A DNA stretch of 58,336 nucleotides, filler included, from Sphacelaria rigidula (Eukaryota), in assembly GCA_964200075.2 (NCBI GenBank). It is 10 parts of 10 records of this genome, joined end to end, with 100 filler letters (N's around TTAATTAATTAA, not from the genome) between each part and the next. Parts side by side here need not be neighbours in the genome. Positions count along the whole stretch, not along the records: positions 40,908 to 46,650 come from CAXNAA020024805.1; 9 more parts are not named here. One strand, given 5' to 3'. This document shows, one piece after another, positions 11,792 to 58,336 of this stretch; within the stretch, counting starts at the first letter, position 1, and each line of letters starts with the position of its first letter. A program made the position numbers and the translations under genes. The notes beneath the pieces are model-generated. The model had not been told where the DNA came from and searched no databases. It saw nothing but the letters and a program-made list of their open reading frames with translations.

Positions 11792-12040
11792 GAGTCAAGC
11801 CGCGGCAGCCCCCCCGGCAACGTGGCTGGTTTGAGAATGCAAAATCTACATGCAAATCAAAGTGACCAGAGCCGAGTATACCGAGCAGCTGGGAACTCCT
11901 ACCCTTGGGATCGTTTTCACCAATGTCGCCCACATGAGGCGCTTTATTCTGCCTGAAACCAGCTATCATGCGCTGTATGGCCATTTTCTTCGTGACAGTT
12001 TTGGGTCCTGCTTAGGGGGGGAGCTATCGCGGCGTTACTC
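11792..12040. mobile_element. Sola2-like MITE (249 bp)
   Basis: GAG...CTC termini, imperfect ~24-bp TIR ending in a C7 run, 4-bp flanks TGGT/CGGT. Homologous to 15292-15542. Confidence 0.7.
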
Positions 12041-16694: not shown

Positions 16695-17310
16695 GTATGA
16701 GCACGCTTTGCAGGGTCGCACTCCAAAGTTCAGGCACCGCCAAACGTGCAACGCTGATTCAACCCCGGTAGTATAAATACTTCGATTTAATACTCTGAGA
16801 AAAGGAGCAAACCCTAGCCTTAGCTCTGACCCTATCCTTGAGTCTCACCCTAGCTCTAACCTTAACCCTTCCTCCAATGTTGTACGTTGCGATTGCGTCG
16901 TTTATGTTGTGTTGAACCCTGCATGCTGTGCTTATAGAAGAGATTGCTCAGACTTGCGATTATTGCCGTACTAGTTGCTGTTGATCCCTCCGCTCTCTCT
17001 CGCCCTCTTCCGGCACCGACAAACCGACATTCGTTTCAGAGACTCCCATGATCTAGGTATCATGTGTGACTGCATTTTCGGCAGCGTACCCCTGCTGCTG
17101 TACCGCACGAATACTGTACACTTACCACTTCAAACATACAGCCTAGCAGTGTTTTCTTGCGGTGCACACGCCTTCAGGGTGCTTGTGGTGTTCGCTCAAG
17201 CTCTGTACCACGTCGTATTCGATATATTTTTCATCCTCGCAAGTGCTGCGCGAGCGCCTCCGAATTCGCCTCATTCCCCACTCCCTGGTCCGACGAAAAC
17301 TCGACGTTCT

Positions 17311-17432
17311 CCGTCCCGGCTGTGTAGGGGTGCGAGGTCAATGGTCTTATGACTATGGCGTACAAGGTCACCAGTATTCCCCCCCCCCTTATCCCCTGCT
17401 CCGTCTCGAAAGGGATGCGTGGTCAATGGTCA
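17311..17432 (+). mobile_element. Tandem LINE 3' ends (subfamily B, C-run, then subfamily A)
   Basis: Type-B end at 17311-17378, C10 at 17379-17388, then TGCTCCGTCTCGAAAGGGATGCGTGGTCAATGGTCA to the contig end. Confidence 0.8.
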
Positions 17433-20123: not shown

Positions 20124-20571
20124 TCGAAGAACATGGCTTCACTCTTGATGGTGTGCCGATGTGGCAACTGTCTTCTGCAGTTTATGTAGAGATGCAGAGA
20201 GTGACGGTTAAGTCACTTGACTTGAGAATAGACAGGTTGAACTTAGCGCCTATGTGGCCGAAGACTTTAACTCATGGGAGAGAAGAGTATGAGAAGATAA
20301 GTAGTAGAGGAGTGATCAGGTGGGCGAGCACCAAGTGTGCGAGCCTACCGATCAGCTAATCAACTTCCAGAACTTCCACATGTCTAGAACACTCGCGGGC
20401 TTACAACCGATAACTCCCGATTAATCCCCCGACAACTTGTTCTGAAAACATAATGTACCGCAGAATATACCGCAGACTATTTCTGGAACACTCAAATGAT
20501 TTCTTACTCGTTTACGATAACCTACGATAGATAGTAGTCGTTACCAATGACTGGCATTGAATATTCCAACA
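20124..20571 (-). repeat. Copia LTR (single copy) with PPT upstream and PBS downstream
   Basis: On the minus strand: PPT GAGGGGGAG (20580-20572), then TGTTGG at 20571. At the other end GATTATGAGCCC (20123-20112) resembles the Copia-type GGTTATGGGCCC tRNA-Met-fragment PBS. The LTR ends GA rather than CA. Confidence 0.75.
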
Positions 20572-21153
20572 CTCCCCCTCAATGAAGAGTCATCTCAAAG
20601 GAAAGTACCAAAGGAGGAATATCTTAATGCAAAAAAAAAACACTTACGCAAAAGATTTTACTCCTACTTGCGATTGACAGAGATCGAACAAAGATCTCTC
20701 ACGCTTCCTTCTGTAGCATGTACGGTAGATGCAGCAAATGAAAAGAACGCAAGAATGCTGTGTACAAGAAGTCACAATTTTAGCCTAGATATTCAAGCTA
20801 CTCAGGGAATCCAGAAAGTATGCACAAATCATCTGAGGTTGCTACTCCGGAGCATATGCTATGAGCTACTGCTTTTACGATCATACTTGAAGATTTGCCC
20901 GCGGGCGTTATACGAATATGCGCAAAAAACACAAGAAAAACGCGTTGCAGTGATATACTGCTGTCTGCTGCTCTGCTTCTAGAAGAAGATGTTTCTCGCT
21001 GCGGACGACGCGTAGAGTCGCTCTTGGCGGAATATTTTCCCTCCCCCTACAGCTCGTTGCGGGAGAACATGTCGATGACGAGATGCACAGAAGATTCCGC
21101 CCGGACTATCCCATGGCGATGGTGAGGAGCCCGATCCTCGAGTTTTGGCGTCG

Positions 21154-23828: not shown

Positions 23829-26800
23829 CTCGCCCTCCCCCTCCTCTTCCTCTTCCATTTCCTCCGGGTTAGCATCAGCGTATTCACTCTCCGCCTGCTC
23901 CAAAACCTGCAAAGAGGCAAATATCCAGACGGAGGAATCACATACGAATACACAAAAGGTGAGCGACATTGCCCCAAAATATTGAATGCAACCACCACCC
24001 CCCTTCCCGAAAACAAAAAGTTCAACCGGCGCCAACAACGGGGACAACAACAACTACGACGATACCGCGATACACCAACACGTCCACCGGGGTAACGGGC
24101 ACCAGCGGACAATCTCTCACCACTCTGCGAAAAATATCATCAGCTTGGCGCACCCCAACATGAGCTATCGTATATACTCAACATCCCTACTCGCAAATGA
24201 GGTTGAAAAACCGGAAGAGACCCGAGCAGGAATCTGCAGAGCATATCTCGAATGTGCATCGTGTATAGACCGTTGATGCAGGCAAGGGCAAAACCCTTTT
24301 ACGATGGCGACTGAGCCAACAGAAAGCTGGTTCGGTAACAGAGCAGTCACCACATGCTGACTCAACACGTAGTTGCCACCATCGACCACGCCCATGAAGG
24401 TACCAGAACTAACGCATGGGGTACGGCACTGGGCTTTTGGCTATACTGTATGCTACTTTCTCAGCCTGACTAGTGCCCCTCCCTCCACCATTAACCTCCG
24501 CAAGTCCGCATATTTTCGCCCAGGAGGGGTACTGCATTTTGTACTCAGCAGAGCCACGCTTCAGGACTTGGGGAGCTCGCGGCGGATGACCGTTGATTTG
24601 CACGATCGGGCTGGTGTGCTCGGGAAGAAACAAGCAAGCAGTGGTCAGCAGAAATTCAATCCTTGTAATTCTCGCCACTCAGAGGTAGTCAGGGAGGCTT
24701 AGCCATGGTGAACTCAGTTGATGGTCACCACGGTAGTGTGTCTTCATCAGAGAAATGACAGTTTGATGGTGACGGCGAGCTGGGCATCAGAGCTGCAGCT
24801 ATTTCGACTTGACATCGATCCGAGCTCTTACTCTTTGCTGTGCCTGTCCGTTGCTATAGGGCATGATGAAGGCGGCGCCTTGCAGTGTGATGGGAGTAGG
24901 GCGGGTATACCTATAGGGCCGACGCTTGTAAGAATAGGACGGCGCATGCACTGCGCCAAGTTGACAGCGGGTTTTAGAGGGTCAGGACCCCCATAATGCC
25001 TGGAGCAAAGCTTTCCGAACGCTCGAGGCGCCTACCCCACATGACTACCGCGAGGCGGTCCTGCCGAACCTCCGGGTGATAGGCACACAAACCCGCCTAC
25101 TATAGAGATCACGCTAGGGAAGATGGAAGCATAATTTATGAGCGCCACGGCACATGTGCAACAACGCTGTCGACTTCTCGCTCCCGTGTAAACGAGGCAA
25201 CCGCCACCTTGATGCCAAAAACCGCACACACTGCCTGGATGGGCCATGTCGACGAACGACACGAAAAAGTATAACCAGTGGCCACAACCAAAGGTATAAA
25301 AGTAGCCATAATCAGCAAATGGCGCGTGCCAGAAAAACTACACGCCTGAGTAAAGTAAAACACAATGGCGTGCACCCCCTCGTTTGATATCACCTGGACT
25401 CTGCATGCGACCTCTAATGCAATGTTGCATTTCTGCCGAGCGTCATCCGGGATTTTTCTTTCGAGACACTGGCGGAGGGAGAGAAGTACGGCATGTCCTC
25501 GACAGAAGCAACGAAGTTTACAGTAAAAATCCACGTCTGATGTCGATGAGAAAAAACTCATCCCCAACCGCTGCATTGTGAAGAGGCGAAGAATCGCCAA
25601 GTAACTCTTTCCCTGGCCACTGCCCGGAATGGAAGCAAGAGGATTCACCTTGTCGTATTGAACCTCCGGGAAGTTGTAAATATCCCCATAGGTTCCCTTT
25701 TTCAGCCGGTCTAGTAGCTCCCCTTCGATAGCCCTTTCCAGCTTTGCCGCCACCAACGCCTTCTTCTCGCGCTGTTTCTCACGTTTCTCTACCTGGCAGA
25801 GTTTTCCACACATTTTTTTTCCGGGATTTTGTCAGCGTGAATGAGACGGGTCAGTCACCACAGTCAGAAGCGCGGTGCAGTACAGCCTTCACGAATATTC
25901 ACGAGAGTGGACGAAACGTCTGCCAGTGGGTCTGCACGTTGCCGGTCCGGCTGGCTTACAGCTTGGTCATCCTCTGACGTTGCACTGGAGGATTGTCACG
26001 CGTTCGACACATTACAATTTGTGCGATGTTTGAGCTTTTGGTGTTATGCTTACACAACATACAAAAATACACCCTCACCGCTGTAGAACTCTTTGGCAAA
26101 TCCGTATCAACAATATTCCGGGCAAAGTCAAGGGGAGAGCAGCTGGAAATATTCTTCATGCTAAGTTAATCGACACATTCTCGCACATCTTGTCCTAGGA
26201 ATATTGACTGACACCCCTAAATATATGTGATATGTTCTGTTCTGTACTGTGTACGTGTGAAAAGGCCGTGAATGCTCGGGTCCGGTAGGGTCAATGTCGT
26301 AGCGTTGTGTGTCATCCTCCACACTATGACACCTGGTCAATTAAGTCATAAAAAATACACTTGCCGCAACGATAAAGCGCCTGTGTATCCATCATCACAA
26401 ATTAAGCAGAAGACGCATCACTCGCCGCATTCTGCCGAAAATATCGACGTATCCTAACCCATCCGAATCATCATCACCCCAGCCCGTCTAAATCATCGCT
26501 CAGCCGTTCTCTCACCTTGGGATTGATGGTGACCAGCTTGGGTTTAGCCTTGAGCTTGAGTTTTCGCATCCGAATGAGGTACTGGTGAATCTTCGTCAGG
26601 CGCTGCTTGCTTCGATGTTGCAAGTGCTTTGGAAAGTACTCCAACTCCTTTGACACCCTCTCCAACGCCTTGGCGTAGTTTCGCGACAGCTGTTGCCCGC
26701 GCGTTTGGTAGCAGTAAACATGAGGAGTATGACCGTAAAATGTAGTGGATACGTGGTGAGGTACAGAACAGTCAGGCATCATTTTTCTTCATTATAACAG

Positions 26801-28602: not shown

Positions 28603-28953
28603 TTGTGTTGTCGTCCCATCTATTCTGGGCGCCAGTCTGCACCTGTCGGTATATGTGGGCGCACCAGCCGGGGTCACACAGGAGGAAGGCCAACACAGGA
28701 GTTTTTTCTTTTTTGTTTGTTTTTAGTACCCCACCTTGCTCCTGCGGTGCTTGCCTTTATTTTTTATAGCGAGAGGGGTTCAGCGCCCCTTTTCCTTCGT
28801 CGACCGATAAGTCGAATTTGGTGTACCCACGACATAGTCGCTCTCCACTGCTGGGCATGTGAGAAAAAATCCTAGATCGCTCCAAGAATTGAACCCCACT
28901 ACTCAACCATCAGAAGGTTTCGAGGTTACCAACTGACCCACCGGGGCGACCGG
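28603..28953 (-). mobile_element. tRNA-derived SINE
   Basis: Full-length reverse-complement copy of 15615-15975, including A/B boxes. Confidence 0.9.
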
Positions 28954-29948
28954 TATTGTGTGGCACTTTGAATACAATCCAACTAGTCAGGACGATTCCC
29001 GCCTCATATTTGCCGGCTCCTTGGGTCCTGGCGAATACGAGTATATTCATTCCTACATACGAGCTGGGCCAGCTTAAAAGCTGCTAAAACTTGCTCACAC
29101 CACAGCTTCCCCAGTTTCCCNNNNNNNNNNNNNNNNNNNNNNNNNNNNNNNNNNNNNNNNNNNNTTAATTAATTAANNNNNNNNNNNNNNNNNNNNNNNN
29201 NNNNNNNNNNNNNNNNNNNNTATGGCATGCATGATCATGAGTACATCCCCCTCCCTACCCACCCAACCGCATATTTTTTGTTCGCCGAAGGCATACCATA
29301 TTTACCGCATTCCTGCGGGCCCTCATCCCCCTTTCCTACCCCTCCGGGCATCAATTGCCGAAAACGCCGAAGTCTCCATCCTCTCTAGACGACAAAAATT
29401 AGAAGAACAGACACATGAGAAACGAGCTTTCCGTGCCGAAGCTACAGTTCTGGACGTACCACAGGTACACAGTACAGCAGTGCACCCCCAGGTGAGATTT
29501 TTTTGTATCGCAGCGTGCTCCTCAACCTGTTGACCGCCGTGATGGTCAATCTGAGTCATTTGGTTCACGATACTTGAAGAAAACAAATGCCAGCAGCGTC
29601 ATCGTATCCATCTACGGGTGCGTTTGAAAGCATCGACACGAATCGTTTCAGTATCACAAGTACACCTCCCGCCCTCTTGGCGGATTTGCACTTTTATAGA
29701 TATGCTGTAAGACTCTTGTTTTTTTTGTTTCATTTTACGGTACCCCTGGAGGAAAGGACTGAAGCCTCTCACTCAACCTCACGCAAAATGCGGGTATATG
29801 TGTATGGAGCTAACTTTACGAGGTGATCATTATCCCGGTCGTCTGGAGTCCCTTGAACAAACTAAATACTCATGTTCAACTCCCGCTCTCCCACACAGTT
29901 TAGAGGGGGGTATTGAGTTTCCGACGAGTTACCTATGCTCGGTACGTA

Positions 29949-31123
29949 TTATGAGTTCTGCTGATGGTCGTCGTGATCCCCTTCTCCAGCACTGCCCTCG
30001 CAAGTGTCTTCCTCGCCCACGTCTCCCTCATAGCATCCCCATGCCTTGTGACTCTCCCATAATTTGATGCAGAGAGAACCGTGGAATTGTTTGCCACACT
30101 TCGCGGCCAGCTCGTCGAAAATTACCTGCACGAGTACGTTTCCCCCCCCCCCCCCCAGAGGGGAGAAAAAAAAAAAGAGAAGTGGTCACCCTGTCTCTTG
30201 CCAACAAAAAAACACGGAATACAGAGACAGGCGCGNNNNNNNNNNACCGTGAAATTGTTTGCCCCACCTCCCGGCCAGCGCGTCGAAAATTACCTGCACG
30301 AGTACGTTTCCCCCCCCCCCCCCCCAAGATGGAGGAGAAAAGAAAAGATATGTCGTCATCATCGTCATCGTCACCAAAAAATAACGGAATACAGAGACAG
30401 GCACGAGAAAGAGGCAAACTGTATCAGGCACTGGTGTGTGCAAACACCACAGCAACAACCCCAACTCTGACAGCGGCAGCAGCAGCAGTAGAAGCAGCAG
30501 AAAAAATACAACTCGAGACAAAATGAAAGACAGGAACAGCAAAGACGAGAACTTGAGGGAGACGTGCGCACTGGAGGCCACGTCTCCAGCTGCCCCCCCC
30601 CTCCCCTCTCTCCTCCTCTCCTCTTCCGCGCACGAGTTGCTCAGTTTTTATCGTTCGTTCTTCAAGCGAGTGTGTTTTTTCAAGTACGGCGTTTGACTTG
30701 TTTGAACCAGTACGACGAACGTTCGGATGGAAAGAAAAAACGCTGTTGTACGAGACGTTCCAGGTGTACTCATAATAGTCGTCAGCGCACGATAAGTTAT
30801 ACACGAGATATAGTGAGAATATATTCCGGAGTTTACTGGTGACTAGATATATGTTTGTGCTCTCTAGTGTACCGTGCCCCCTCCATCCTTCCTTTTCTCA
30901 CACCACTCGCTACAGTACATACAGCAAGTCGACTTGCCTTGCACATGAACTCCGTCGTTGTATTCTCTCCGGGGAAAAGTTCGTTCAAGTTCTTGAAGTT
31001 GTACTTGGACAGGACTTCGGCCAGCATGGTTGACGCCGCGCCGATGTCGACGACCCAGTTGAGCTTGGGCACGAGTGCGTCTGTCTTAAATTCTGCATCA
31101 ACGGTGTAGGTAGCCCCGTGCAT
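29949..31123 (-). CDS. 6-pyruvoyltetrahydropterin synthase/QueD-like T-fold protein (COG0720), last two exons
   Basis: Exon 31123-30938 MHGATYTVDAEF..WVVDIG..YNFKNLNELFPGENTTTEFMCK, GC-AG intron, exon 30125-29949 VIFDELA..IKLWESHKAWGCYEG..stop. Family motifs HG.TY.V, VVD.G, N.TTE and ES are present. Confidence 0.88.
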
Positions 31124-33020: not shown

Positions 33021-34856
33021 CCCGTCGAATTGTTCTGAAATTGAAAATACGAATTCTCAACCACAGTTCCACCCAATCTTCACATACTTTAAATCGTAGT
33101 CACCCCTATTAGCTGGGGAATCTAACGCATTTTTTTTTTGCAAACGGTTACTATGGGATCAAGTCATACCCCACACCGTGGTTCCGCGGTAACGTGGGAT
33201 TTTAGCGTCGTGGGATTTCCACTGATGATGTGGGAAAAGAAAAACAATCCTTCTGACGGTTTCCCTTATATCCGTCGTAGAAGAGCTCTGATAGACCTCA
33301 AATTTGCCAATTCCGCAATTTTTGGTGCTCCAAACGGAAACATGTTTTTTTCACCGGCTTCCGGGGCTCTTCACGCTGGGATCCCCGGAAACCGATCCAT
33401 AATGTCTCGAAATAAAAAATAAATCATGCTTCGCTTACTGGACATTCCCAGGGACGTATGTACAATTTTTGGTTGCGAAACTCGAAAATCTGGTGCAGTA
33501 TTCCTCGCATAAACCTTGAACATACCCGAAAAACACTTCTCATACCAAAATCGAGTAGTTAGGAGTTTGCACGTTTCAAGCTCTCATTACATCGCACAAA
33601 CGTACAGATATCCGCGCCGACTTTTGTAGTTAAACTCTGGAATTTTGCACATATATACTACTACATTCCAAAACATTATGAATGAGGTCTTTTGACTTTT
33701 GTTTTGTTTTTTTTGCCAGTTATCGGGGGTTCCAGACGGTCACGTGGATCCCCGGGACCCCTGGGACCCCGGATAGGTAGAGGCAAAAGCAAAAGTTTCG
33801 CAATGTTCCATAGTATATGTGCGGAAAATCTTCAGCCCAACTTCAAGAATTGGCGAGAACATTCGCGGGTGAGTAAAATTTGGGTGATGAACGTAGATCA
33901 GCGTGTAAGCATGCACATAATATCCAGCCCACAGCCCACGCTCAACTCAGAACTGTACACAACCTGCACGTCCCGTACCTCTACCAATGGCTGGTGTAAA
34001 ATATGGTGAGGCAGTGATGATATGATGGTGGGGGAAAGATAAGCTCGTAGAGCCGAACGTCATTTCGTGATTGATGCATACCTTCTGTTTTTGTGGGTTA
34101 TGAAACGTACAACCACATGTTACCCGTTACTGCACCGTTACCGGGAGATGTTCCGTGGTTATGGCTCGCCATTTTCAGATGCGATTTCTCGCTATTTTCA
34201 GGTATCCTTCACAGAATAATATACCAGCGGGAGGGAATTGAAAACCACCTCAGGTTTATCTGCTACCTTTGGAGTCAGATGCCGGTATTCCGCGGCCTTG
34301 ACCAAGATGATGGTCGTATTTGGGGCAAGGTATGGTGTTACTGCTACCCAGACTCGGAATTGGCCCTGCAAATTTCTCAGAAGCATCAGGTGTACCCGAA
34401 TGTGACCATCGGCAATTAATTCATACCAACCCTCGTGCAACCTGTAATTGCTATTGGTGGGCACAATTCGCGCGGCAGTTTCCCGCCAAGTACGTGAGAT
34501 CTTCACCGATTCCCATCACCGAGTCTCGGTAGAGCCGGGTACAATGTGCACCCTACGGCAATCACGGTGAGTTCATCAACACCCAAAGTAGAATTTTCGA
34601 TCCTTGCGTTTCCGGCCTCAACTCAAGAGTATAAACATGTCAGCGCGGCCGTCATATATATATATATATATATATATTCAAAGACAGCGGCTGTAAAGGC
34701 CCTTGTGAGACTTAAATAAGAACGTACGGGGAGGGGCATACCCGTTATCTTGCATGCCGCAGTCATGAGACCATTGGCCTCGCGTTCCTACAAAGACGGG
34801 ACGGACGGAGCACGCCATGTTTTCGCCATATCAGACTCGCAAGCGCAAACGGTCCG

Positions 34857-34889
<33 letters not shown>

Positions 34890-35513: not shown

Positions 35514-35740
35514 TGTGTGTGTGGTGTGTGTTGTCGTCCCATCTATTTTGGACGCCGGTCTGCACCTTTCGGTATATGTGGGCGCACCAGCCTGGGTCAC
35601 ACAGGAGGAAGGCCACCACAGTAGTTTTGTTTTTGCTTGTTTTGATTCTTTACCTTCTCTCTGCGGTGCTTGCCTTCATCTTTTATCGCGAAAGGAGTTC
35701 AGCTATCTCTTTCCCTCGTCGACCATGAGGTCGAATTTTG
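35514..35740 (-). mobile_element. 5'-truncated tRNA-derived SINE
   Basis: Matches the SINE body and (CA)n tail; lacks the tRNA head. Confidence 0.85.
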
Positions 35741-38754: not shown

Positions 38755-40079
38755 CACGTCGGACGTGAGCTAGCTCATCTGTGGACAGTAGCTCACTTGT
38801 GGTCAAATATGTGCCGATGAGCTACGCCCGATGGCTCACCCAGGAAAACATGCGTAGCTCATGAAGTTCTTATAGCTCGCCCTGACCACACATTCGCAGC
38901 TCACGTAGCTCTCACGTCTCACCCCAGGGCATTCGTGTAGCTCTCATAGCTCATCCAGGGCAAACATGCGCTGATGAGCTAAGTCCCGTACCTCACCCGG
39001 GGCAAACGTGCGTAGCTCACGTAGATCTCATGGCTGAGTAGGGAGCCATGCCCAAGAAGAGCTAGCTGGAGCTACAGGGGGCTGATGTGTCCGACTTATG
39101 CAATAGCATGAACAATTTGAGCTCCGGGCCTCGTTTCGGTACAACATTGGGCCGCCAGACCCGCGGGAAATGTGCAACCATGTGCTGTACAAAAATATTT
39201 GAGCAACGTGCAGTGCAGACGGTACAGTACTGTCTGTGCTGCCTGCACACAGTAGGGTGTAGATTCGAGTTTGCGCACAGTAGTACATCGGCTATACTAA
39301 AACCGTTTTGAACAATGTGCAGCACAGGCAGTACAGTACTGTCTGTAGCGTTTGCAAACAGTATCCCAGCGGTGAGCCGACAATAAATACTGGCACCGCG
39401 GTACATGCGGTGGTGCAAAGGAGACGATGAGTGATAGTGACCCCACAAACCCGGAGGCTATTGTTTGCCTGTGTTCCACTCGTGCCACGGACGTTCCAAA
39501 AACATCCGCCGGCGAACAAACACAGAACACAGACGTTTGAACGTGCTCATATATCAACGTGCGTAAGCATCGGAATGGAATAAGCTCTCGCGTGGCGTTC
39601 GGTCTTGTGGTGTTATACGCGGCTTTGTGTGTAGCTCACCCCGGGAAAAGACGTGCGGATGAGCTACGTTGGGTGGCTCACCCAGGGCAAACATGCGTAG
39701 CTCATGTAGTTCTCATAGCTGACGTTGACCAAACATGCGTCGCCCATGCACTTCCCATAGCTCACCCAGGGCAAACATTCGTAATTCATATAGCTCTCAT
39801 AACTCACTCAGGACGCACATGTGCTCATGAGCTACTCACCTGTAGCGCACCCAGGGCAAACATACCCTGATGAACGACGTCCGGTAGCTCACCCAGGGCA
39901 AGCGTGTGCGAATGAGCTACAAGTTAGTAGCTCACCCAGGGCAAACATGCGTAGTTCATGTAACTCTCATAGCTCATACACCGAAAACGTACGTATCTCA
40001 AGTAGCTCTCATAGCTCAGTAGGGAGCTACGCTAAAAAAAAGCTAGCTCGAGCTACAGGGAGCTGATCTGTCCGACGTG
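38755..40079. mobile_element. TIR-bounded element with two AGCT-rich ~42-bp minisatellite blocks
   Basis: CACGTCGGAC (38755) and GTCCGACGTG (40070). Blocks 38765-39095 and 39630-40076 are built from TAGCTCACCCAGGGCAAACATGCG units and share the same ~60-bp right end. Confidence 0.6.
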
Positions 40080-40631
40080 TGAAAGCTTTTGAGGGCAAAA
40101 TGTAACGATTATCTCTTGAGCCAATATATGTATTTCCACGAGGAGGGGGGTGGATCTCTTCTGCGCTTGGAACTGCGAGGAAGTAGCGGAGCACAAGTGA
40201 TGATATGGAGCCAGGACGCACGACTTAGGGCGGGTGTGGGTGGTCTACTAAGTAGAAAGTGATGGCGCAACTGCAGTATGTGGCCACGTTGTGTTGTTAG
40301 GTTCCGATGGTCAACGGTTCATTTTTCTTCTGGCCGCAGGTATAGCTAATTGTCGTATACGACGTGACTCGGTGTGGTGGTGTCACCCCCCGGTACTGGT
40401 GAGACACCCATGAGGCAGTGTGTAAGCCGCGGCTGTCTCTGGAAGTGGCGATACCAGAAAATGAAGCAACTCATTGGATGCTGCCGTCCAAACGCAAGAT
40501 AACCAGTACGCTTCGGGCCGAACAGTCTCAGCAGGATGCAGCTCACCACTCATGAGACTCATCGAACAGGTGACGGCGCTTCGCGCTTGGTGCTTGATTG
40601 CGAGCCTGGTCCGGCGAAAATCCGGCGTGAT

Positions 40632-40807
40632 CCATCCCGGCTTTGTAGGGATGCGAGGTTAATGGTCTTATGACTACGGCATGCAAGATCATGAGTATAC
40701 CCCCCCCCTCCCTGTACTCGTCCCCCTGTACTCGGTGCTCCGTCTCGAAAGAGATGCGTGGTCAATGGTCAAACGACTAAGGCAAGCAACAAATGAGTAC
40801 GCCCCCC
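40632..40807 (+). mobile_element. Tandem LINE 3' ends (subfamily B, C-run, subfamily A, C-run)
   Basis: Type B at 40632-40708, CCCTGTACTCG twice, type A at 40735-40807 ending ATGAGTACGCCCCCC. Confidence 0.85.
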
Positions 40808-43080
40808 NNNNNNNNNNNNNNNNNNNNNNNNNNNNNNNNNNNNNNNNNNNNTTAATTAATTAANNNNNNNNNNNNNNNNNNNNNNNNNNNNNNNNNNNNN
40901 NNNNNNNAAAATGTGGGCCTAAAATTTGAGCAGATGGGCACCGTTACACGATTAATATAATATGCGGATCATGGCCCAACTCGTCAGTGTCGACGAGATA
41001 TTGCTTAGAGAGCTTAAATCCGTGTCTAGGCTGGCCCAGCTCGTATTAGAATATTATGTCTGCGATATCCGTGTCTACATCTAGGTGTGTGCGTTGTGCG
41101 GTCATGCACTCGCCTCTGTAAACTCAGCGTTACGACGGGGATTTTTTATATATATATAGCGAAATAGACGCCTCCGCAAGAAACGCGGATGGTGGCAAAA
41201 TATCCCAATTTTGCAACCGTGGTTCCGCACACCGTGTGCATACGGCATCGAATCACACGGCATCGCCCAAGTGAAAGGAGTGGGCTCGAAGACGATCGAG
41301 GTGCGTTGATATATAGACGAGCAGTTCCTCTCGCATGCTGCGTCGGTAACAGCACTGTCTTCAACGAGTACTTGCAGAATCCGTGCAGCCTAGGGTAAAC
41401 ACCACACCTCCCCGTGAAACCTGACCTCGGGTGTCATGGCAGAGCACCGCGCTCGCATGACGCCACCGGTAGAGACACACCCGGAGGATGTTTTCACCAT
41501 CTAGAGAAATCGGTATTACCACAGGAAAAGGTTGCGCTGGAATCCATCCATGCCGCAGATGAAACGAATTGGTTGAGGTTTGGAAACAGGTTTGAATTTT
41601 GCTACGCACCAGTACATGGGCCATCTGACCTGCCGTGTACTGTACAAACAGCACAGTACACTACACTACAGCACGGTACAATAAAGCTCACTGCGGTACA
41701 GATCGTTGTGCTGAAGTGCGTAGACAGCAAGAATAAAATGCCATGTAGTACAAATGTGTATATGACTGTGATCAAACGTACTTCAACCAGCTCCTGCAAA
41801 CCGCGGGGGCGGTTGTAAATCTTGGGGTTGCGCTGTACAGGCACAAATATGCGACTCGCTCTCAGTGTCCCTAACGGAAGAAGGAGTGCAAGTTGAGAAT
41901 CTGACAGCCAGAAGCAAGCAACTTTCGACGTGGATAGAGATCAACGGAGTTGACATGAGTATAGATTTCGACTTATCAATTTCAACGGTATCAAGATCGC
42001 ACGCCGCGACCATCAGGTGCGGTAGAGAACACATGCCTCCGTCGGTGTTGACCGCGACGACATGAGAACGGCAGCGTGGATGACACGCTCGATCAAAGGC
42101 ATTAATCTTCAACCCTCCACCCGACCACCCTCCAGGACATACACTCGCAGCAGATGTGGAGGACCCCCAGGGCTGACTCATGGGATGCAACGTCCGGGCG
42201 CCTGCTGAGACGCCGTCCGGGGCAGTCCGAGCGTCACATACGGCACCAAAATCAATTCCGAGGTAATAGCATCATCAGTTCACTCTTTGCAGTACACCCT
42301 GCGAACTATCAAAGGTGATGATCGCTCGCTCCCCGTTGTTTTCTTTCAGGTATGACTGTGGCTTCCAAACGAAACGCAGGACGCTTGCATGCGTGGATAA
42401 TTTACGTGCACATGGAAACCCAACTCCCACTCTCGAAATGTTGAACGTAGCAGAGAACTGAGATCTTGCACGCATACGCCATTGCTTCATGTAATCCGGG
42501 CAGGTAGTGAAACACCTGCATCTCTTCGGGAGGCACCGGTACTGTTATCAGCGGGCTGGGGGGCGCTGCCTCGCAGTGGAATGCGGCAGCGATTATGGGC
42601 GAGCTTTCGTCGGGGGTAGCAGGGGAGGGAACGGCAGAGGCGACCTCACGCGCGAGTGTTGTTGGTGGCGGGCGGGCGGTTGTGGCCCGTTGCTGGAATT
42701 CACCGGCTGCATCAAGCGGATGGGGGGAGGGAGGAGCGGCGATGCCGCCGATGGCAGCAACTGCGGCATACGGAGACCTTGACGACGGAGGTATGGCGGG
42801 GGCGGCCCCACGGACTTCTCTTGCGGCGGTGACGGGCCAGCGATCGAGCGGGGGGGCGCCGACGCCGATAACGGCGCCGAACGCTGGTCTTCGCACCCGC
42901 GCAGGGGTTACGGCGATTCCACGATCGTATCTTACCGCGTGGGCAGGTAGCGAGAGGGGGTGAACAGCGGCGGCAGGAGAATCACGCGCGCTAAGTGCGG
43001 CGCTCCCCCCCCCTTCTATGCGTGGCTCGCAACGCCACCTGTTGTGGTGATGTCATGGTAGTGGGCCTGATCGGAGTACT

Positions 43081-43823: not shown

Positions 43824-43973
43824 CGGGGGGGGGGGGGGGGGGGAAAACCTTTTGTTTTTTTGCGGGGGTGTGTTGCCATTTAACCCCGCACCCCTTTCGA
43901 AAGGGNNNNNNNNNNCGGTAGAGGGACAGGAAGAAAGGGAGGAGGGAAGACGGAAGAGAGCGCGGGCGGGAGA

Positions 43974-45490
43974 GGGGGGGGGGGGGGGGGGGGGGGGAGC
44001 ATACTCATTTGTTGCTTGCCTGAGTCGTTTGACCATTGACCACGCATCCCTTTCGAGACGGAGCACCGCTCCGACTCCTAATATTGATCCCTTCAACATT
44101 TGGACACTCCTTACGCTTCATCCATACCATTACATGAAAACCTTTTGCAATCTTATCCCGTCCTGCTTCGCCTTCTGTGGCCACCATCTATCTCCTAGTA
44201 CAGCTATCGTTTCCTCCCTACTGTCTAATACACCAAACGATTCCATGCCACCTCCGTTCACGTCCCGCATTTTCCCCCCTCGTACGTCATGTTCCTCTTT
44301 GCATAGTTCATATTCTCCCACTATATGAGTTCTGCTCTCTGTTGCTTTGCCACAGGGGCAATTCTGTGCACCTACTCCCTCCTCTTCTCTACTGGTGGTC
44401 CATCTCTTTCTTCTTTCTGGCAGGTCCAGATCCCCCACCAGAAATCGCAGTTTCGCTTTTTTCGCCGCGTCCATTGGGCCATGCAGATACGTTTACATTC
44501 CCATCCCCTCCCTCAACTCCCCGTATATCTTGAGGTGTTCTTCCCCGTCTACTTTGCGTCTGAGCGTTTCTTTTCTCCTTGTTTCGATCATGTCTCTTGT
44601 GTAGTGTATCCCGCACCTTCTCCAGTGGACAGCATCTCGTCTTGGTTTCCTCCTGTCGTGCTCCATACTTTGTCGACCTCTCTATCCCACCTTACTCCAG
44701 CCTGCCCTTTCGTCATTTCTTCTAGACAGCCTTTATAACCATGGCTGGCAAATCTCTTTTTCTGCATGTTTTCTACGCTAAATGGTCATCCCAATTTTCG
44801 TCGTTTGTTTCACGTGAGTACATTCCCAACTCTGCTCTCAATGCTGTATTACTCGTCCTTTTCGAGCATCCAACCGGGTGTTCCTTGTATTCGCTACATA
44901 AATGTTCTGCGCATATTTGCTGTCACTTTCAATTTCCTAGTGTATTCCAACGCCTTCTCTATTTGTTTCTGCAATCCTCCTGATGTTCCTGATGTCCCCA
45001 CGAAATCATCTGTGAACATCAATCCTGATATCACATCTTCCGCCACCTCGACTCTTTGCTCTGCTGCTTGTATTGTTATCATCATTAATAAATGCTTCGA
45101 ATAAAGTGGGTGATAACGTACATCCCTGTGCAACTCCTTGTAAAATATCAAAGCATTCCGATATTTACCCGTCTACCATCATAGCACTTTTGTCACATTC
45201 TGTCATATTCTTCACCATTCTCCACATTTTCCGTCTGATCCCAGTTTCGCACACCCTTGTCCACAGCCCATTTCTCCATACTGTCTCATGGGCCTTTTGT
45301 ACGCCCAGGATGAAACAGTACGTTGTCAGCCCGGCGTCTTTCCTACCTTGCATAATCTTACCTAGTGTGTACACATGGTCTACGCAACTACGGTTCGGTC
45401 TAAAACGTGCCGGCCCCTCGTTGTTGTTTTGTGTAGCCTCGTTTCCACTCTATCGTTCAGACTCTTGACATAATATTTTCCCCACCGTGC
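43974..45490 (-). mobile_element. Non-LTR retrotransposon (RTE-X-like LINE), RT to 3' end, with C24 tail
   Basis: MSTVGKI, VQKAHETVWRNGLW, GVAQGCTLSP, GLMFTDDFVG; C-terminal LRFLVGDLDLPERRKR..CPCG..ESRTHIVGE; 3' UTR then a G-run on the plus strand at 43974-43997. Frameshifted. Clade assignment is an inference. Confidence 0.92.
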
Positions 45491-46650
45491 TCATTTGTTG
45501 CTTGCCTTAGTCGTTTGACCATTGACCACGCATCCCTTTCGAGACGGAGCACCGTTCCTACTCCAAATAGAGTCACTGTCAACATTCCGGCACTCATTAC
45601 TTTTTTTCCATACATTACACAAAAGCCGTTTACATACCTTATCCTCGTCCTGTTTCGCCGTCTGTGGCCATCATCTATCTCCTAGTATAGCCATCGTTTT
45701 CTCCCCAGTGTCTAATGAACTAAACCATTTCATGCTGTCTTCGTTCACGTCCCGCATTTCCCCCTTTAGCACGTCCCGTTCCTCTTTGTATAGTTCACAT
45801 TCTGCCACTATATGACTTCTGCCCTCTATTTCTTTGCCACAGGGGCAGTTCTGTCCATCTACTTCCTCCACACGACTACTGGTATATGTTTCCTCTTCAT
45901 GGAAAGTCCATGTCCCCCACCCGAAATCGCAGTTTCAACTTTTTCGCCCCATCCATGGGGCCATGCAGATATGTCTTCATCCCAATCCCCTCTCTCAACC
46001 ACCCGTATATCTTCAGGTGTTCTTCCTCGTCTACCTTGCGTCTGAGTGCTCCTTTTCCCCTTCTTTGTACCATGTCTCTCGCTTTCGTCTTGTACCCCGC
46101 GCCTTCACCTATGGACAGTATTTCGTCTTGGTTTCCGCCTATCTCCTTCCACACTTTCTCGACTTCTTTATCCCACCATATAGCATACCCTTTCGTACTT
46201 TTCTTCCATACAGTCTTCTCAACTATAGCTGACAACCTCTTTCTCTGCATACTCTTTACGCTATATTGCCATCGCAATTTCCTCATGTCTCTGTTTGTTT
46301 CAAGTGAGTGCATCCCCAACTCTGCTCTCAAAACTGTATTACTCGTCGCTCCCGAGTATCCAAGTATCTTCTTCGCTGCTGCCATCTGTACTGTTTCTAA
46401 ATTTTCACCAGTTTCACGTTCCCCTCCCATACTTCTCCTGCATATTCCAGCCTTGGTGCGATCACATTCATCAGGATATATCTCTTGATCCTAGTGTCTA
46501 GTTGCGGGTCTCTGAGGATCACGTCCATTCTGCCTATCTATGCCTCACTTTTTTCTAGTACTTTGTTTATGTGTGCACCTGAAGAACAGTGTTTTGAGAT
46601 CTCTACGCCAAGGTATGTATACTGGTCTACGATTTGTAGTTCCTCTTCTC
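45491..46650 (-). mobile_element. Second LINE copy (3' half), directly upstream of the first
   Basis: VDQYTYLGVEIS, LRAELG, LRFRVGDMDFP, CPCGKEIEGRSHIVAECELYKEER and the same 3' UTR at 45491-45553. Confidence 0.92.
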
Positions 46651-46880
46651 NNNNNNNNNNNNNNNNNNNNNNNNNNNNNNNNNNNNNNNNNNNNTTAATT
46701 AATTAANNNNNNNNNNNNNNNNNNNNNNNNNNNNNNNNNNNNNNNNNNNNGATCTTAAGACCGTTCGGCCCGAGGCCTACTGATTATCTTGCATTTGGAT
46801 GACAGCCTACAATGAGTTGCTTTATTATCTGGTATATATGGGAGGGGGGGAGGGGGGGTAGCACTGTTGGGACCGTGTCC

Positions 46881-49012: not shown

Positions 49013-49904
49013 GTGAGTCCTGAAAACCGAACGGTGATGACACCAAAAATGCGACCGCGGGTGTCTTGTTGCTGAGTGATCTAATATTTATAGTCCTGCC
49101 TCAGCGATGAACCCTATCGGAACAAATTTTCCCCTACGATACTTTTGACGTATTTCAAGTAACTTTGATCAAGCGCTCCCCCCCCCCCCTCCTCCCCCGC
49201 GTGCCCCTTCAAGATGTATACATGTTTCGCTTTTGTTTTTCGGTCCGAAAGGTTTTGCACCCATTTATTCTGTCCATAGCAGTGTTTTTAGAGACGAAGA
49301 ACGGAGCAGTGGCTGCTGAATAGCTACTGTACTGTCGTGTGTCACTACACTTGTAAAAGGGATGAAATCGGCAGTGAATACAGCAGACCTGAATGAAAAC
49401 GTGTCGGCTCGTCGTACAAGATGTCGCACATGGGAAAATTCACGAGATGGATGAAAATTAGGTGATGTAACCTTTTTTTTCTTTTTTTTCGCGGCTCGCT
49501 TCAAAACTATTGAGCTAAGCTCGTTTTCGCAGGCCATAATGAAAAAAGAATCACCAATGAATAAAAAATGTAATAGTTCGCTACTGTTGTTGTAGTGAAG
49601 TCAAAAAGCGCTCCAAGAGGGCGCATCACTTTTCACCACTTGTTCGCCGTTACGACTGTCTGGATCTGTCGTGGAACAGATTATAATGACGACCAATTCT
49701 AGCTATACAGCAATCTACGTGAGAGATGTCGCGATAGCCCCCCCCCCCCCCCCCTAACAATAAAGGGGAGAACTCAGTATACTGGGGGAAACGGGAGTAT
49801 AAAAGGAGGAAAGGGAGGGGGTGTGGGAGGGGGGGNNNNNNNNNNGGATCTGTCGTGGAACAGATTATAATAACGACCAATTCTACCTATACAGCAATCT
49901 ACGT

Positions 49905-50460
49905 GAGAGATGTCGCGATAGCCCCCCCCCCCCCTCCTAACAATAGAGGGTAGAACTCAGTATACTGGGAGAACGTGAAGTATACAAGGAGGAACGGGAC
50001 GTGTTGTGGAAGGGGGGATGTGGGAAGTTAACGAAGGTGGCATGAAAATGTGTGGTACATTGGACAGTCAGTGGCGAAAAAACAATCGCTACACTAAGAG
50101 ATATAGATGGCGGCTGCAGACGATGACATGGGAAGGGGATAAAACATGTCAAGAGTTTTTTTTGTATGTTCAGGAATGTCTGCAAGGAACGGAATGAGCG
50201 CCCAAATGTTGGAGGTGTCTCTCTTCGGTGCTACGTCTAGAAGGGATGGCGTGGTAAGCATCAAGGGAGTACCGCCCACCTACCCTCGAGCCAGCCCCCA
50301 AACTGCCACGAACGAATGACCACCCAGCGCATGAAAGCTCTGGTTTCAGACTACATGAAGCGCCTCATATGGGCGGCATTGATTGGCGAAAAACAATTTC
50401 AAGCGTGGGAGTTCCCAGCTGCTTGGTGTGCTCGGCTTTTTTCATTTTGATTCGTATTCG
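49905..50460. mobile_element. Sola2-like MITE interrupted in its C-run by a 5'-truncated LINE (49937-50280, +)
   Basis: MITE terminus GAGAGATGTCGCGATAGCCCC.., then LINE C-terminal sequence (YKEERDVL..EKTIA-like), then the MITE body resumes (AAACTGCCACGAA..GCGCATGA..GCGCCTCAT). Confidence 0.7.
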
Positions 50461-51093: not shown

Positions 51094-51371
51094 TCACATC
51101 AAAACATTCGACGTTGGATACTCTTTTTCGCAACACCACCGCCATAACATTCCCCTTCGCAACCTCTCCCTCTCTTGTGTCGCAGTGCAGTATGGATTGC
51201 GATATGTAGATATAGGCGTTGTATGAACACGACTGTCTGCCCAAACGCGGGCAAAGTACGTGATTATCTGCAACTCACTCATTGTGCACGCCTATAATAC
51301 CAAAACATTTTTGTATCGACTGGTAACACCAGACAGTCAACTTACTGCATGTACATTTCATTCAGTGGAGC

Positions 51372-51838
51372 AGGTCGCCCCTGTGGCTCAGTTGGTAACC
51401 TCGAAACCTTCTGACAGTTGAATCGTGGGTTAAATTCTCGGAGCGATCTGGGATTTTTTCTCACACAATGCCCAACAGTGGAGAGCGGCTATGTCGTGGG
51501 TACACAAAATTTGACTTCACCCCTAGACGGGGAGAGTAAGTCATGCGCGGAATCGGCATCAATTTAGCTTGAAAAAAGTATGCATGTCCCAAGTAGACTA
51601 CCCTCGCGGTCTAAGGATTAACGGTCGACGAGGGACAGGGACTGCTGAACCCCTCTCGCAATAAAAAATGAAGGCAAGCATCGCAGAAGGACGGTAGGGT
51701 GCTAAAAACAAATGAAGAAGAAAAAGCTCCTGTGTTGATCTCCCTCGTGTGTGACCCCGGCTGGTGCGCCCACACATACCGAAATATGTAGACCGGCGCC
51801 CAGAATAGATTAGATGACAATACACACAACACAACACA
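51372..51838 (+). mobile_element. tRNA-derived SINE carrying a nested MITE
   Basis: A box TGGCTCAGTTGG, body and CA tail as at 15615; CAGTGG on both flanks. Confidence 0.88.
51520..51617. mobile_element. 98-bp piggyBac-like MITE
   Basis: Absent from the other SINE copies; flanks TTCA/TTAA; imperfect TIR CCCCTAGACGGGGAGAGTA vs TACCCTCGCGGTCTAAGGA. Confidence 0.7.
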
Positions 51839-52192
51839 GTGGCAGTACAGAACTGCTCGTCGTACCCCGCCCTCCTTGGAATGTCGGCCGTATCACTGCG
51901 ATAGTGTCAGGTCGGTAACAACCGGTCTTGCGAAAGCCAGCGGGACTCGGCGTTCATTATCCAGTGATCACCGCGACACAAAAGTCATTTTACAGCCGGC
52001 AAAATTGCCCCCCGATCGCCACAAGAACAACTCACACACCAAAACTCCTCGGTTTAGGGCTGCTCACGTTGAGGCGAACCTTGGAATATATCAATGATTG
52101 TTCAATTCCGTATACTAGTGGAGAAATAGGAAGAATAAGGTTTTTCCCAAATGGATTTGATATTTTCCTCATTCTCGACCGCGGGTAGGGGG

Positions 52193-52266
52193 AGGGCGTA
52201 CTCATCTGTTGTTTGCCTTAGTCGTTTGGCCATTGACCACGTATCCCTTTCGAGACGGAGCAAATT
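52193..52266 (-). mobile_element. 74-bp LINE 3'-end insertion with 16-bp TSD
   Basis: GACCGCGGGTAGGGGG at 52177-52192 and 52267-52282 flanks a subfamily-A 3' end. Confidence 0.9.
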
Positions 52267-52387
52267 GACCGCGGGTAGGGGGGGGGGGGTAGCGGTGGTG
52301 CATATATTTCCCGAGATGAGGCCCCTCGGTTTTGCCTACGGCATGTCTGTCATGTAGATAACGACCGAGACTGGATCACGACTGCCT

Positions 52388-56107: not shown

Positions 56108-57084
56108 AACAGCGGGTCCTCAAAAATGGGGTCCATCTAAAAAATGAGGTCCATCTAAAAAATGAGGTCCGAGTAGCATTTCGGTTTTGCAGGGGTGACG
56201 CGACACAGTTACACAGAGCGAAGCCATCTCCCCCCCCAAATGTCCGCAGCAGTTCAGCAGCTGTGGCTAGGTGCCCCTTACGAATGCGGTGTGCACGCGC
56301 GTCGATGACGATATTACCAGAGAGAGGAAGCAACGACAGAGAGGAAGCTCCTCGCCCGTGTCCTTTGTGTGTCCTCGCTCGGCGATTACCAACCGCTCGA
56401 GAGACTGGCATCGTCGATGTTACCAGCATGTACCCAATTTTCCATGTGCCAGAACACCGAGGTGCGGAGAGATTATGTCTCTTCTTGATGCTGTTAGGTA
56501 AAATCAACGATGAATAACACCTCCCCCAAGTTCCAATTGGATATATCGGTTGTTTTCGCCGCATCACCGCCCTTGCTGGCATGTGTGTGACAGAGAATAG
56601 TAGTAGCGGTGACGGGAACATTGCCCTATTTTTCAACGACATGCTTTTCAGCGCACAGAGGCGCGTCCTGTCGAAAAAGAGAGGCAGAGAGAAATCCATC
56701 TTCGCATTGGTGAGCTCGACAGGCAAGAAGAGACATAATCTCTCCGCACCTCGGTGTTCTGGCACATGGAAAATTGGGTACATGCTGGTAACATCGATGA
56801 TGCCAGTCTCTCGAGCGATTTGTAATCGCCGAGCGAGGACACACAAAGGACACGGGCGAGGAGCTTCCTCTCTGTCGTTGCTTCCTCTCTCTGGTGATAT
56901 CGTCATTGACACGCGTGCACATCGCATTCGTAAGGTGCACCTAGCCACAGCTGCTGAACTGCTGCGGACATTTGGGGGGGAAGATGGCTTCGCTCTGTGT
57001 AACTGTGTCGCGTCATCCCTGCAAAAAAGAAATGCTACTCGGACCTCATTTTTTTGTGGACCCCATTTTTGAGGATCCGCCGTT
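56108..57084. mobile_element. Foldback element: ~360-bp inverted arms around a 236-bp spacer
   Basis: 56108-56487 is the reverse complement of 56724-57084 with scattered mismatches; the left arm has an extra ~18-bp tandem copy. Confidence 0.9.
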
Positions 57085-58238: not shown

Positions 58239-58336
58239 GCTAATGCCGAGATAGCCCCCCCACAAAACGTGCACCGGCACAATCCAACGAACCGGCTGCG
58301 ATCCCACTATTGGGCTCGTTTGCAGCAATTTCGCCC
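58239..58336 (+). mobile_element. Sola2-like MITE family left end
   Basis: TAATGCCGAGATAGCCCCCCCACAAAACGTGCAC..TTGGGCTCGTTT matches the other copies. Confidence 0.55.

What the first reader, a model, noticed from the sequence alone, without database searches (positions are those of the whole stretch)
43974..44070. LINE family with oligo(C) tails that targets C/G runs
Seen: most LINE 3' ends whose terminus is visible end ...AGTA(C/T)N(0-3) followed by C-runs, not poly(A): 5907, 17379, 29247, 40700, 40802, 43974-43997 (C24) and 52193. The exception is 45491, which is fused to the next copy. Copies sit just behind the C-tail of another copy (17311-17432, 40632-40807) or inside the C-run of a MITE (49922). 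Known: in target-primed reverse transcription the RNA tail pairs with the nicked target (L1 poly(A) with T-runs), and RTE/CR1-type LINEs often end in short repeats. Inference: a G/C counterpart of L1 targeting that seeds and feeds on the many G/C homopolymers here. I do not know of a description of this, but could not search.
Basis: partly seen in the sequence, partly recalled or inferred. Interest (0 to 1): 0.72.

Follow-up and report, generated by a model that had tools for sequence, protein, structure and literature searches.

The report
Brown-algal LINE inserting into C-runs
A very abundant brown-algal retrotransposon and its non-coding partner end in runs of C and insert into existing C-runs, much as human LINE-1 does with A-runs; this trait is already listed for Ectocarpus, but here about half of the copies are a precise 66-base end piece, which is unexplained.

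Summary
Real and genome-wide, but already noted in print. The finding is the 3' end of a minus-strand, single-ORF endonuclease-RT LINE of a brown alga, broken in this copy. On the + strand 1825 of 2141 termini are followed by CCCC and none by AAAA. The untouched 5' flank has a C5 run in 48 of 70 and 59 of 82 copies (G5: none). Target-site duplications (33 of 70; control 6 of 828; up to 10-22 bp) start with C in 31 of 33. Dinatale et al. 2025 (PMC12477816, supplement) list Ectocarpus RTEX-1/-2/-N1 with '(C)n 3'' and 'C-rich' TSDs. Not found in my searches: (1) the stop codon lies 5 nt before the C-run, and the last 23 codons show 0 of 20 synonymous changes against 39% elsewhere, so the RNA signal lies inside the ORF; (2) about half of the copies end sharply 62-71 nt from the 3' end. 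Whether the Cs are in the RNA is inferred, not shown. Run lengths, C24 included, are unreliable. 'Feeds on' C-runs is supported; 'seeds' them only in part.

The parts
43974..43999 (-). 3' junction of LINE copy 1: 2 nt plus C24 on the element strand (length uncertain, 19-24)
44000..44065 (-). Terminal 66-nt unit: last codons of the ORF, stop codon TGA at 44007-44005, 5-nt UTR; putative RT-recognition RNA; 44065 is the 5'-truncation hot spot of the family
44000..45492 (-). LINE copy 1 (family B), matches ORF residues about 750-1360 of relative P0001; broken by frameshifts, stops and an internal deletion
45486..45492 (-). Microhomology joint between the terminus of copy 2 and the RT region of copy 1
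45486..46650 (-). LINE copy 2 (family B), residues about 973-1360, broken, cut by the contig end
43825..43973 (.). G19 plus probable assembly artefact around a 10-N gap; the left part repeats the element end in degraded form (the right part was not significant)
52197..52262 (-). 66-nt family-B copy; 16-bp duplication starting with C5 at 52177-52192 and 52267-52282; target run C12 at 52278-52289
40733..40807 (+). 69-nt family-B copy plus C6, behind the tail of a family-A copy, cut by the contig end
40397..40708 (+). Family-A (non-coding partner) copy of about 300 nt plus C9; C6 just before its 5' end
17284..17388 (+). Family-A copy plus C10
17397..17432 (+). Family-B copy starting exactly at the hot spot, behind the family-A tail, cut by the contig end
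5845..5917 (+). Family-A 3' end plus C4-A-C6
29221..29255 (+). Family-A 3' end plus C-rich tract
34728..34888 (-). Diverged family-A copy (34728-34842) with a C-rich end and C31 shortly before its 5' end
46758..46858 (-). Family-A internal fragment (46758-46835) with two C7 runs at its 5' flank
49936..50272 (+). Old family-B fragment (residues about 1255-1338 match) inserted in the C-run (49922-49934) of a MITE-like element
11807..12030 (-). Uninterrupted MITE-like paralogue (about 220 bp, imperfect inverted ends holding C7): shows the empty site of 49922; others at 15320-15535 and 17533-17690

Best explanation
A brown-algal APE-type LINE of the lineage annotated as RTEX in Ectocarpus, with a non-coding partner of at least 500 nt that shares its 3' end. 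Mechanism: (1, shown as sequence constraint; role inferred) the ORF protein recognises the last 66-69 nt of its RNA, which lie inside the ORF. (2, shown as insertion pattern) it inserts where the top strand carries a C-run. (3, inferred) the endonuclease nicks the G strand inside or next to the run, the freed G-rich 3' end pairs with the short C tract that follows the signal in the RNA, and reverse transcription starts there. The C tract most likely comes from the donor copy's own genomic C-run, since the ORF ends 5 nt before it. Pairing in any register, with slippage, gives 0-14 extra bases. (4, shown) the second nick lies 3-14 nt past the run, giving a duplication of up to 10-22 bp that begins with C, so each insertion leaves a C-run on both sides and offers a new target; hence the stacked copies. 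(5, pattern shown; cause inferred) about half of the events stop at the 5' edge of the signal, most simply because only the protein-protected end of the RNA survives or is copied. How much of the targeting is due to the endonuclease and how much to primer pairing cannot be told from genomic data.
For: Tails; also 3 of 3 metagenome contigs of related lineages. Target: C5 in the 25 nt before the 5' junction in 48 of 70 and 59 of 82, G5 in none, C5 further upstream in 4 of 70 and 1 of 82; partner family 14 of 26, G5 0 of 26. TSDs: 33 of 70 against 6 of 828 mismatched pairs, 31 of 33 begin with 2 or more C, 20 of 33 carry extra bases, 9 of 33 three or more; in the older, tail-blind set 11 of 70 against 31 of 4830, one with a C3 target and a 14-nt tract. 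Protein: Pfam Exo_endo_phos plus RVT_1, catalytic-type residues invariant in 33 sequences, model pLDDT 91.6 whose best Foldseek hits are LINE-1 endonuclease structures. Signal: 0 of 20 synonymous changes in the last 23 codons against 328 of 849 elsewhere; none of the other 51 windows has zero; the partner keeps 52-55 of the 66 nt. Hot spot. Prior annotation.
Against: No RNA evidence was obtained. 13 of 33 duplicated sites have no extra base, so their Cs can all be target-derived. No TSD was called in 37 of 70 and 59 of 70 copies. The 66-nt unit does not fold better than shuffles (z from -1.04 to +0.19 in 7 sequences), 3 of the 4 LINE-end folds gave another structure than the one I favour, and I saw no change on both sides of a pair, so the structure is a guess. 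My TSD search required the bases before the 3' copy to be C-rich, which biases the 'extra' bases towards C. No intact ORF was seen among the 30 of 151 protein matches fetched from this genome. RTEX membership was not tested with reference sequences.
Confidence: 0.62

Rival explanations
1. There is no RNA tail to speak of. The endonuclease itself picks G-runs; all Cs at the 3' junction are target DNA, lengthened now and then by slippage during priming or later replication.
For: 13 of 33 duplicated sites have no extra base, and in 12 of them the target run is longer than the junction run; the median gain is 1 nt. C-run lengths are unstable in this assembly.
Against: 9 of 33 sites gained 3-14 nt, some with T or G interruptions absent from the target; L091 has a 14-nt tract from a C3 target. 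Repeats of 'last base plus C-run' occur (L010); first interruptions were G 9, A 2 after G-ending termini and A 4, G 1 after C-ending ones, but none was A in 27 partner ends (weak). L1 endonuclease is only modestly specific in vitro (PMC12809410, passages).
Confidence: 0.15
2. Endonuclease-independent insertion: G-runs break or stall replication forks, and the RNP primes on those ends by C:G pairing.
For: Long C/G runs are common here (15 of 10 or more nt against 4 A/T runs in the window); half or more of the copies gave no TSD call. EN-independent L1 insertions keep a weaker target preference (PMC12809410, passage).
Against: TSD lengths cluster at 10-22 bp, as for staggered nicks; the endonuclease active site is conserved in intact relatives; many targets are only C3-C8.
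Confidence: 0.1
3. The 66-67 nt unit is cut out as a separate RNA, gets oligo(C) after transcription from a nucleotidyltransferase, and moves as a micro-SINE. The closing stem followed by one unpaired base and CC looks like a tRNA acceptor end (resemblance by eye; poly(C) activity of CCA-adding enzymes is recalled).
For: The 5' end is sharp: 58 of 84 exact copies end at -66 or -67. Short copies are closer to the common sequence than long ones (mean 2.1 against 4.9 mismatches in 43 nt, n = 37 and 23, p = 0.0014; ungapped comparison inflates a few long ones).
Against: ARAGORN found no tRNA in 8 loci; Rfam found nothing relevant; no fixed diagnostic base separates short from long copies; most copies lack the G at -67 that the stem's first pair needs; a 66-nt copy has no visible promoter; the partner family has its 5' ends elsewhere (near -95 to -100, -300, -500).
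Confidence: 0.1
4. Sequencing or assembly artefact (poly-G reads, contig breaks at homopolymers).
For: Run lengths differ between double readings of one site (19/24; 17/13), and many copies lie at contig ends.
Against: The run is C on the element strand whichever way the element points; it is mostly 5-12 nt, often interrupted, lies inside contigs with matching duplications, and recurs in three other assemblies and in the Ectocarpus annotation.
Confidence: 0.02

Closest known systems
RTEX-1_Ec32 and RTEX-2_Ec32 of Ectocarpus (PMC12477816, supplementary file 1, rows seen)
   Same: Single EN-RT ORF, '(C)n 3'' or '(C)n termini/TSD', TSD 'C-rich', thousands of copies (RTEX-1b 3007). The closest named protein relatives of this family are from Ectocarpus sp..
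   Different: Their consensus FASTA could not be read, so identity is not measured. The rows and main-text passages I saw give no TSD lengths, no mechanism, no coding-overlapping signal and no 66-nt class; 'C-rich' does not occur in the main text.
RTEX-N1_Ec32 (604-607 bp) and RTEX-N2_Ec32 (188 bp), same source
   Same: Non-coding, C-rich TSD, 'can be present in tandem', '60 bp 3' end 83%' like the LINE. Family A here: no ORF match beyond the shared end, 52-55 of 66 nt alike, tandem copies, 2283 motif matches.
   Different: Family A could be followed for about 500 nt only; its true 5' end is not fixed. Sequence identity to RTEX-N1 not tested.
Human LINE-1 (PMC12809410, passages)
   Same: APE-type endonuclease fold; homopolymer at the 3' junction matching the target run; duplications that begin with the run; the same open question of nick preference against primer pairing.
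   Different: C instead of A; short tract; nick apparently inside the run (12 of 33) rather than at its edge; specific 3' signal shared with a partner, where L1 recognition is 'relaxed' (PMC3747384, passages).
'Stringent' LINE/SINE pairs such as UnaL2 and RTE; green-algal RTEX with (CA)n, (CAA)n, (CCAT)n, (ACAATG)n or (CTTGTAA)n ends (PMC3747384, passages and Table 3)
   Same: Shared 3' end between LINE and partner; terminal repeats linked to template slippage.
   Different: The terminal repeat is a single base, C, and the shared end is coding sequence, not a 3' UTR.

Membership tests
APE-type non-LTR retrotransposon (LINE) | N-terminal APE-like endonuclease and RT in one ORF | tested here: met
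   Met in relatives P0001, P0002 and L271; window copies match residues about 750-1360 of P0001 at 43-72%. The endonuclease region is not in the window.
APE-type non-LTR retrotransposon (LINE) | Common 3' end, variable 5' truncation, target-site duplications of variable length, no LTRs | tested here: met
RTEX clade | Placement with RTEX references in an RT tree | not testable with these tools
   No labelled RTEX reference sequence came from any tool; none of the 120 listed relatives carries a clade name. The label rests on PMC12477816 (best blastp RTEX-4_NV, RTEX-1_BF).
RTEX-1/-2_Ec32 lineage | Single EN-RT ORF | tested here: met
   P0001 1360 aa, P0002 1328 aa, L271 and L272 over 1200 aa open; upstream ORFs were not looked for
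RTEX-1/-2_Ec32 lineage | (C)n 3' end and C-rich TSD | tested here: met
RTEX-1/-2_Ec32 lineage | Sequence identity to the published consensus | not testable with these tools
   The FASTA supplements cannot be read; indirect only: Ectocarpus sp. proteins match at 54% (C-terminal part) and 67-77% (RT part of P0001)
RTEX-N1_Ec32-like non-autonomous partner (family A) | Non-coding, about 60 nt 3' end about 83% like the LINE, C-rich ends, tandem copies | tested here: met
RTEX-N1_Ec32-like non-autonomous partner (family A) | Full length about 600 bp | tested here: inconclusive
   Four copies reach about 500 nt and start near one place
tRNA-derived SINE or known ribozyme (66-nt unit, family A) | tRNA or Rfam match | tested here: not met
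   ARAGORN 0 genes in 8 loci; Rfam only chance-level hits in window 40400-40810, L181 and L174
L1-type relaxed poly(A) retrotransposition | Poly(A) tail and A-run target | tested here: not met
   AAAA after 0 of 2141 termini on +; A5 before the 5' junction in 4 of 70 and 0 of 82. It works like L1 in geometry only.

The most novel reading that the evidence does not exclude
The last 66-67 nt of the LINE's reading frame double as a discrete RNA: it is released at a fixed point (self-cleavage, an RNase P-like cut, or a protein block to 5' decay), carries an oligo(C) end that may be added after transcription, and is copied into C-runs as a promoterless micro-element that now makes up about half of the family. 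This would be a LINE whose commonest product is its own recognition signal, and a natural C:G version of L1 priming.
Probability: 0.15. Interest if true: 0.7.

Novelty: new member of a known kind. Interest (0 to 1): 0.4.

Why it matters
For L1 it is still argued whether the target bias comes from the endonuclease or from primer pairing with the tail (PMC12809410). A LINE with the same endonuclease fold that uses C-runs allows swaps of tail and endonuclease that separate the two. It also bears on brown-algal genomes: thousands of copies duplicate C-runs, stack in them and break short-read assemblies. The coding-overlapping signal and the sharp 66-nt class point to how this RT grips its RNA. The basic trait is not new.

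Tried and rejected
Poly-G artefact: rejected for presence, accepted for lengths. Known RNA family or tRNA in the 3' unit: none; HDV-like, hammerhead, twister and pistol layouts were compared by eye from recall and did not fit. Thermodynamic support for the fold: none. The automatic alignment of LINE and partner ends was misregistered at its 5' side, so no covariation count was run. First TSD finder was too loose (15 of 70 against 27 of 414 controls) and was replaced. The right half of the 43906 gap as a degraded flank reading: not significant (122 of 1000 shuffles). Separate lineage for the short copies: no fixed diagnostic base. Sequencing runs: no RNA holder listed; the laid runs are contigs and skip the homopolymer, so neither transcript tail nor run length was tested. 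Earlier findings of this scan: three look-ups returned nothing. Literature searches without a further description of a C-tailed, C-targeting LINE or of such a truncation class: (listings only; the library lacks most subscription papers; Repbase and Dfam were not available). (CCA-adding enzymes) was seen as a listing only.

Full report
Setting. The window is a string of small contigs joined by N-spacers, from a 244-Mb assembly in 27,214 contigs. The closest named relatives of the element's protein are from Ectocarpus sp., so the host is very probably a brown alga (inference).

Observation. The finding covers a G24 run and the end of a minus-strand element. Two broken copies lie head to tail at 44000-46650 and match the C-terminal half of P0001, a 1360-aa endonuclease-RT protein. 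Family B is the LINE. Family A is non-coding, at least about 500 nt, and shares 52-55 of the last 66 nt with B in four copies compared. An internal 19-mer of B matches 2293 times and an 18-mer of A 2283 times in the genome.

The C end is general. I took 93 of the first 100 listed B matches, chosen without regard to the tail; 88 had a readable end. Of these 74 have a C5 run in the next 15 nt, against A5 1, G5 0, T5 0 and a background of 1.4%. Genome-wide on the + strand 1825 of 2141 terminal 16-mers are followed by CCCC within 0-3 nt and none by AAAA. Family A gives 22 of 28. Three metagenome contigs of related lineages (60-70% protein identity to the query) also end in C7-C11.

The target is a C-run. 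The 5' flank of a truncated copy is original host DNA. A C5 run lies in the 25 nt before the 5' junction in 48 of 70 copies of the tail-blind set (G5 0; further upstream 4 of 70; 38 of 58 after leaving out 12 flagged as behind another copy's tail). In a second set, 90 of the first 100 listed of 214 exact 66-nt matches (10 at contig starts left out), it is 59 of 82 (G5 0; further upstream 1 of 82); the two sets share some copies. Contigs of four public runs show the same: loose ends at the element's 5' side have a G-run consensus on the + strand. At 49922 the empty site is seen in uninterrupted MITE-like paralogues.

Duplications. In the exact set 33 of 70 usable copies gave a TSD call, against 6 of 828 mismatched pairs. 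The longest possible duplication is 10-22 bp (median 15); 31 of 33 begin with at least 2 C; the part after the leading Cs is 3-14 nt. Twenty of 33 have bases at the 3' junction that the target cannot supply (9 have 3-14), 13 have none, and in 12 of those the target run goes on 5' of the duplication, so the nick fell inside the run or the primer realigned. The search asked for C-rich bases before the 3' copy, which biases the extra bases. In the older set a stricter test gave 11 of 70 against 31 of 4830; the junction tract was longer than the target run in 5, shorter in 5, equal in 1. The window holds one clear case at 52197-52262.

Limits of the assembly. The run at 43974 was read from both sides of a 10-N gap: 43844-43905 is a degraded copy of the element end behind G19 (0 of 1000 shuffles; the matching test on the right side failed, 122 of 1000). 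The site at 49738/49922 is assembled twice with C17 and C13. The runs are real; their lengths are not reliable.

Two features I did not find described. First, the stop codon lies 5 nt before the C-run, so the conserved end is coding sequence. Between the intact ORFs of L271 and L272 the last 23 codons have 0 synonymous changes in 20 shared residues, against 328 of 849 elsewhere; none of the other 51 windows of 23 codons has zero. Second, 5' ends pile up at the edge of that segment. Of 79 tail-blind copies with a visible junction 40 are 62-71 nt long and 23 are 65-67 nt. Of 84 exact copies 42 end at -66 and 16 at -67 (this set cannot show shorter copies). Genome-wide only 736 of 3380 18-mers starting at -66 continue with the next 7 upstream bases (mutations explain part of the loss). 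Loose ends in four runs cluster at window 44063-44068. By eye the unit can close a 6-bp stem (GTGCTC with GAGTAC) around two hairpins, and A and B differ largely in the two loops. But it folds no better than shuffles, other folds compete, and Rfam and ARAGORN find nothing. The constraint is shown; the structure is a guess.

The 45491 exception. The terminal 8-mer of the element also stands in the RT region of L271 at the place where copy 2 joins copy 1. The joint is a microhomology fusion, by template switch or deletion.

Protein. The endonuclease domain of L271 keeps E, Y, D, N, T, D, D and H invariant across 33 sequences and folds like the LINE-1 endonuclease (pLDDT 91.6; best hits 2v0r and 1vyb, E about 1e-12). 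Nothing in this tells its target preference. No intact ORF was seen among 30 of 151 protein matches fetched from this genome.

Mechanism. Best reading (0.62): stringent target-primed reverse transcription. The protein binds the last 66-69 nt of the RNA; the G strand is nicked in or beside a run; the G-rich primer pairs with the short C tract behind the signal, which most likely comes from the donor's genomic run; slippage gives variable extra bases; a second nick 3-14 nt past the run gives a C-led duplication. Each insertion thus leaves C-runs on both sides, and 10 of 82 exact copies were flagged as sitting behind another copy's tail. The insertion pattern is shown; RNA tail, nick preference and the cause of the hot spot are inferred. 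Rivals: target-only Cs with a G-specific endonuclease (0.15), priming at breaks in G-runs (0.10), a processed RNA with added oligo(C) (0.10), artefact (0.02). On 'seeding': long C/G runs outnumber A/T runs in the window (15 against 4 at 10 nt or more), but by my reading only 10 of 34 C/G runs of 7 or more touch an element junction, and several others are MITE ends.

Comparison with what is known. Dinatale et al. 2025 (PMC12477816; main-text passages and rows of supplementary files 1, 2, 3, 5 seen; FASTA supplements not readable) list RTEX-1_Ec32 as 'single EN-RT ORF; (C)n 3'' with TSD 'C-rich', RTEX-2_Ec32 with '(C)n termini/TSD', and the non-autonomous RTEX-N1_Ec32 (607 bp, 'can be present in tandem', '60 bp 3' end 83%') and RTEX-N2_Ec32. 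The main text does not mention the trait. An RTEX-1 is also reported from Saccharina (PMC4421812, passages). The architecture, ends and partner here fit that lineage on every feature I could test; clade placement and identity to the consensus could not be tested. It works like L1 in geometry (PMC12809410, passages) and like stringent LINE/SINE pairs in its shared 3' end (PMC3747384, passages and Table 3). PMC5753468 and PMC11203168 (passages) added only that RTEX is a recognised clade beside RTE. Searches for another description, or for the 66-nt class, gave none; the library is incomplete, and the unread FASTA supplements and Repbase may hold more.

Verdict. A real feature and a sound reading, but a new member of a lineage whose C ends and C-rich targets are on record. 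The added value is the quantified geometry, the coding-overlapping signal and the sharp 66-nt class. Interest 0.40.

Noticed in passing
window 11807-12030, 15320-15535, 17533-17690, 49915-50460, 58245-58265: MITE-like family of about 220 bp whose imperfect inverted ends hold a C7-C13 run; a repeated target of the LINE (also L094, L130, L183, L257, L259).
   Followed up: partly
L069, L194, L203, L220, L243, L267: Several unrelated insertions share the same short sequence right after the C-run, pointing to another repeat that serves as a recurrent target.
   Followed up: no
family A, e.g. window 40480-40515; L160, L162, L171, L176: Family A holds a degenerate internal copy of its own 3' terminus about 200 nt upstream of the end, and its 5' ends cluster near -100, -300 and -500; it may have grown from stacked insertions.
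   Followed up: partly
L069 (5' junction), L009: Telomere-like TTAGGG repeats next to the 5' junction of two short copies; possible extra bases captured during joining.
   Followed up: no
window 49662-49834 and 49846-50017; 30078-30235 and 30246-30405; 43844-43973: Stretches duplicated across 10-N gaps beside long homopolymers: assembly artefacts.
   Followed up: partly
window 17943-23022 (- strand): Broken copia-type LTR element: Pfam Retrotran_gag_2, gag_pre-integrs and RVT_2 in separate frames.
   Followed up: no
window 25136-25831 (- strand): Exon of a MAK16 gene (PF04874, E 2.6e-21).
   Followed up: no
window 8835-11312 (+ strand): 263-aa and 162-aa frames that look like gag/pol remnants by eye; no Pfam match.
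   Followed up: no
window 56137-56487 and 56724-57073: 350-bp inverted repeat, 95% alike.
   Followed up: no
window 15612-15988, 28604-28956, 35514-35740, 51370-51838: Another dispersed repeat of about 370 bp in four copies, 80-88% alike.
   Followed up: no
window 38801-40084: Degenerate tandem-like repeats of 40-250 bp period.
   Followed up: no
P0003, P0048: Ectocarpus sp. gene models in which pieces of this LINE's ORF are joined to Gypsy or ABC-transporter sequence; probably misannotation.
   Followed up: no
P0001, P0002, L271, L272 C-terminus: C-x-C-x8-H-x4-C motif in brown-algal members, a likely zinc knuckle; C, H and C columns are nearly invariant.
   Followed up: no
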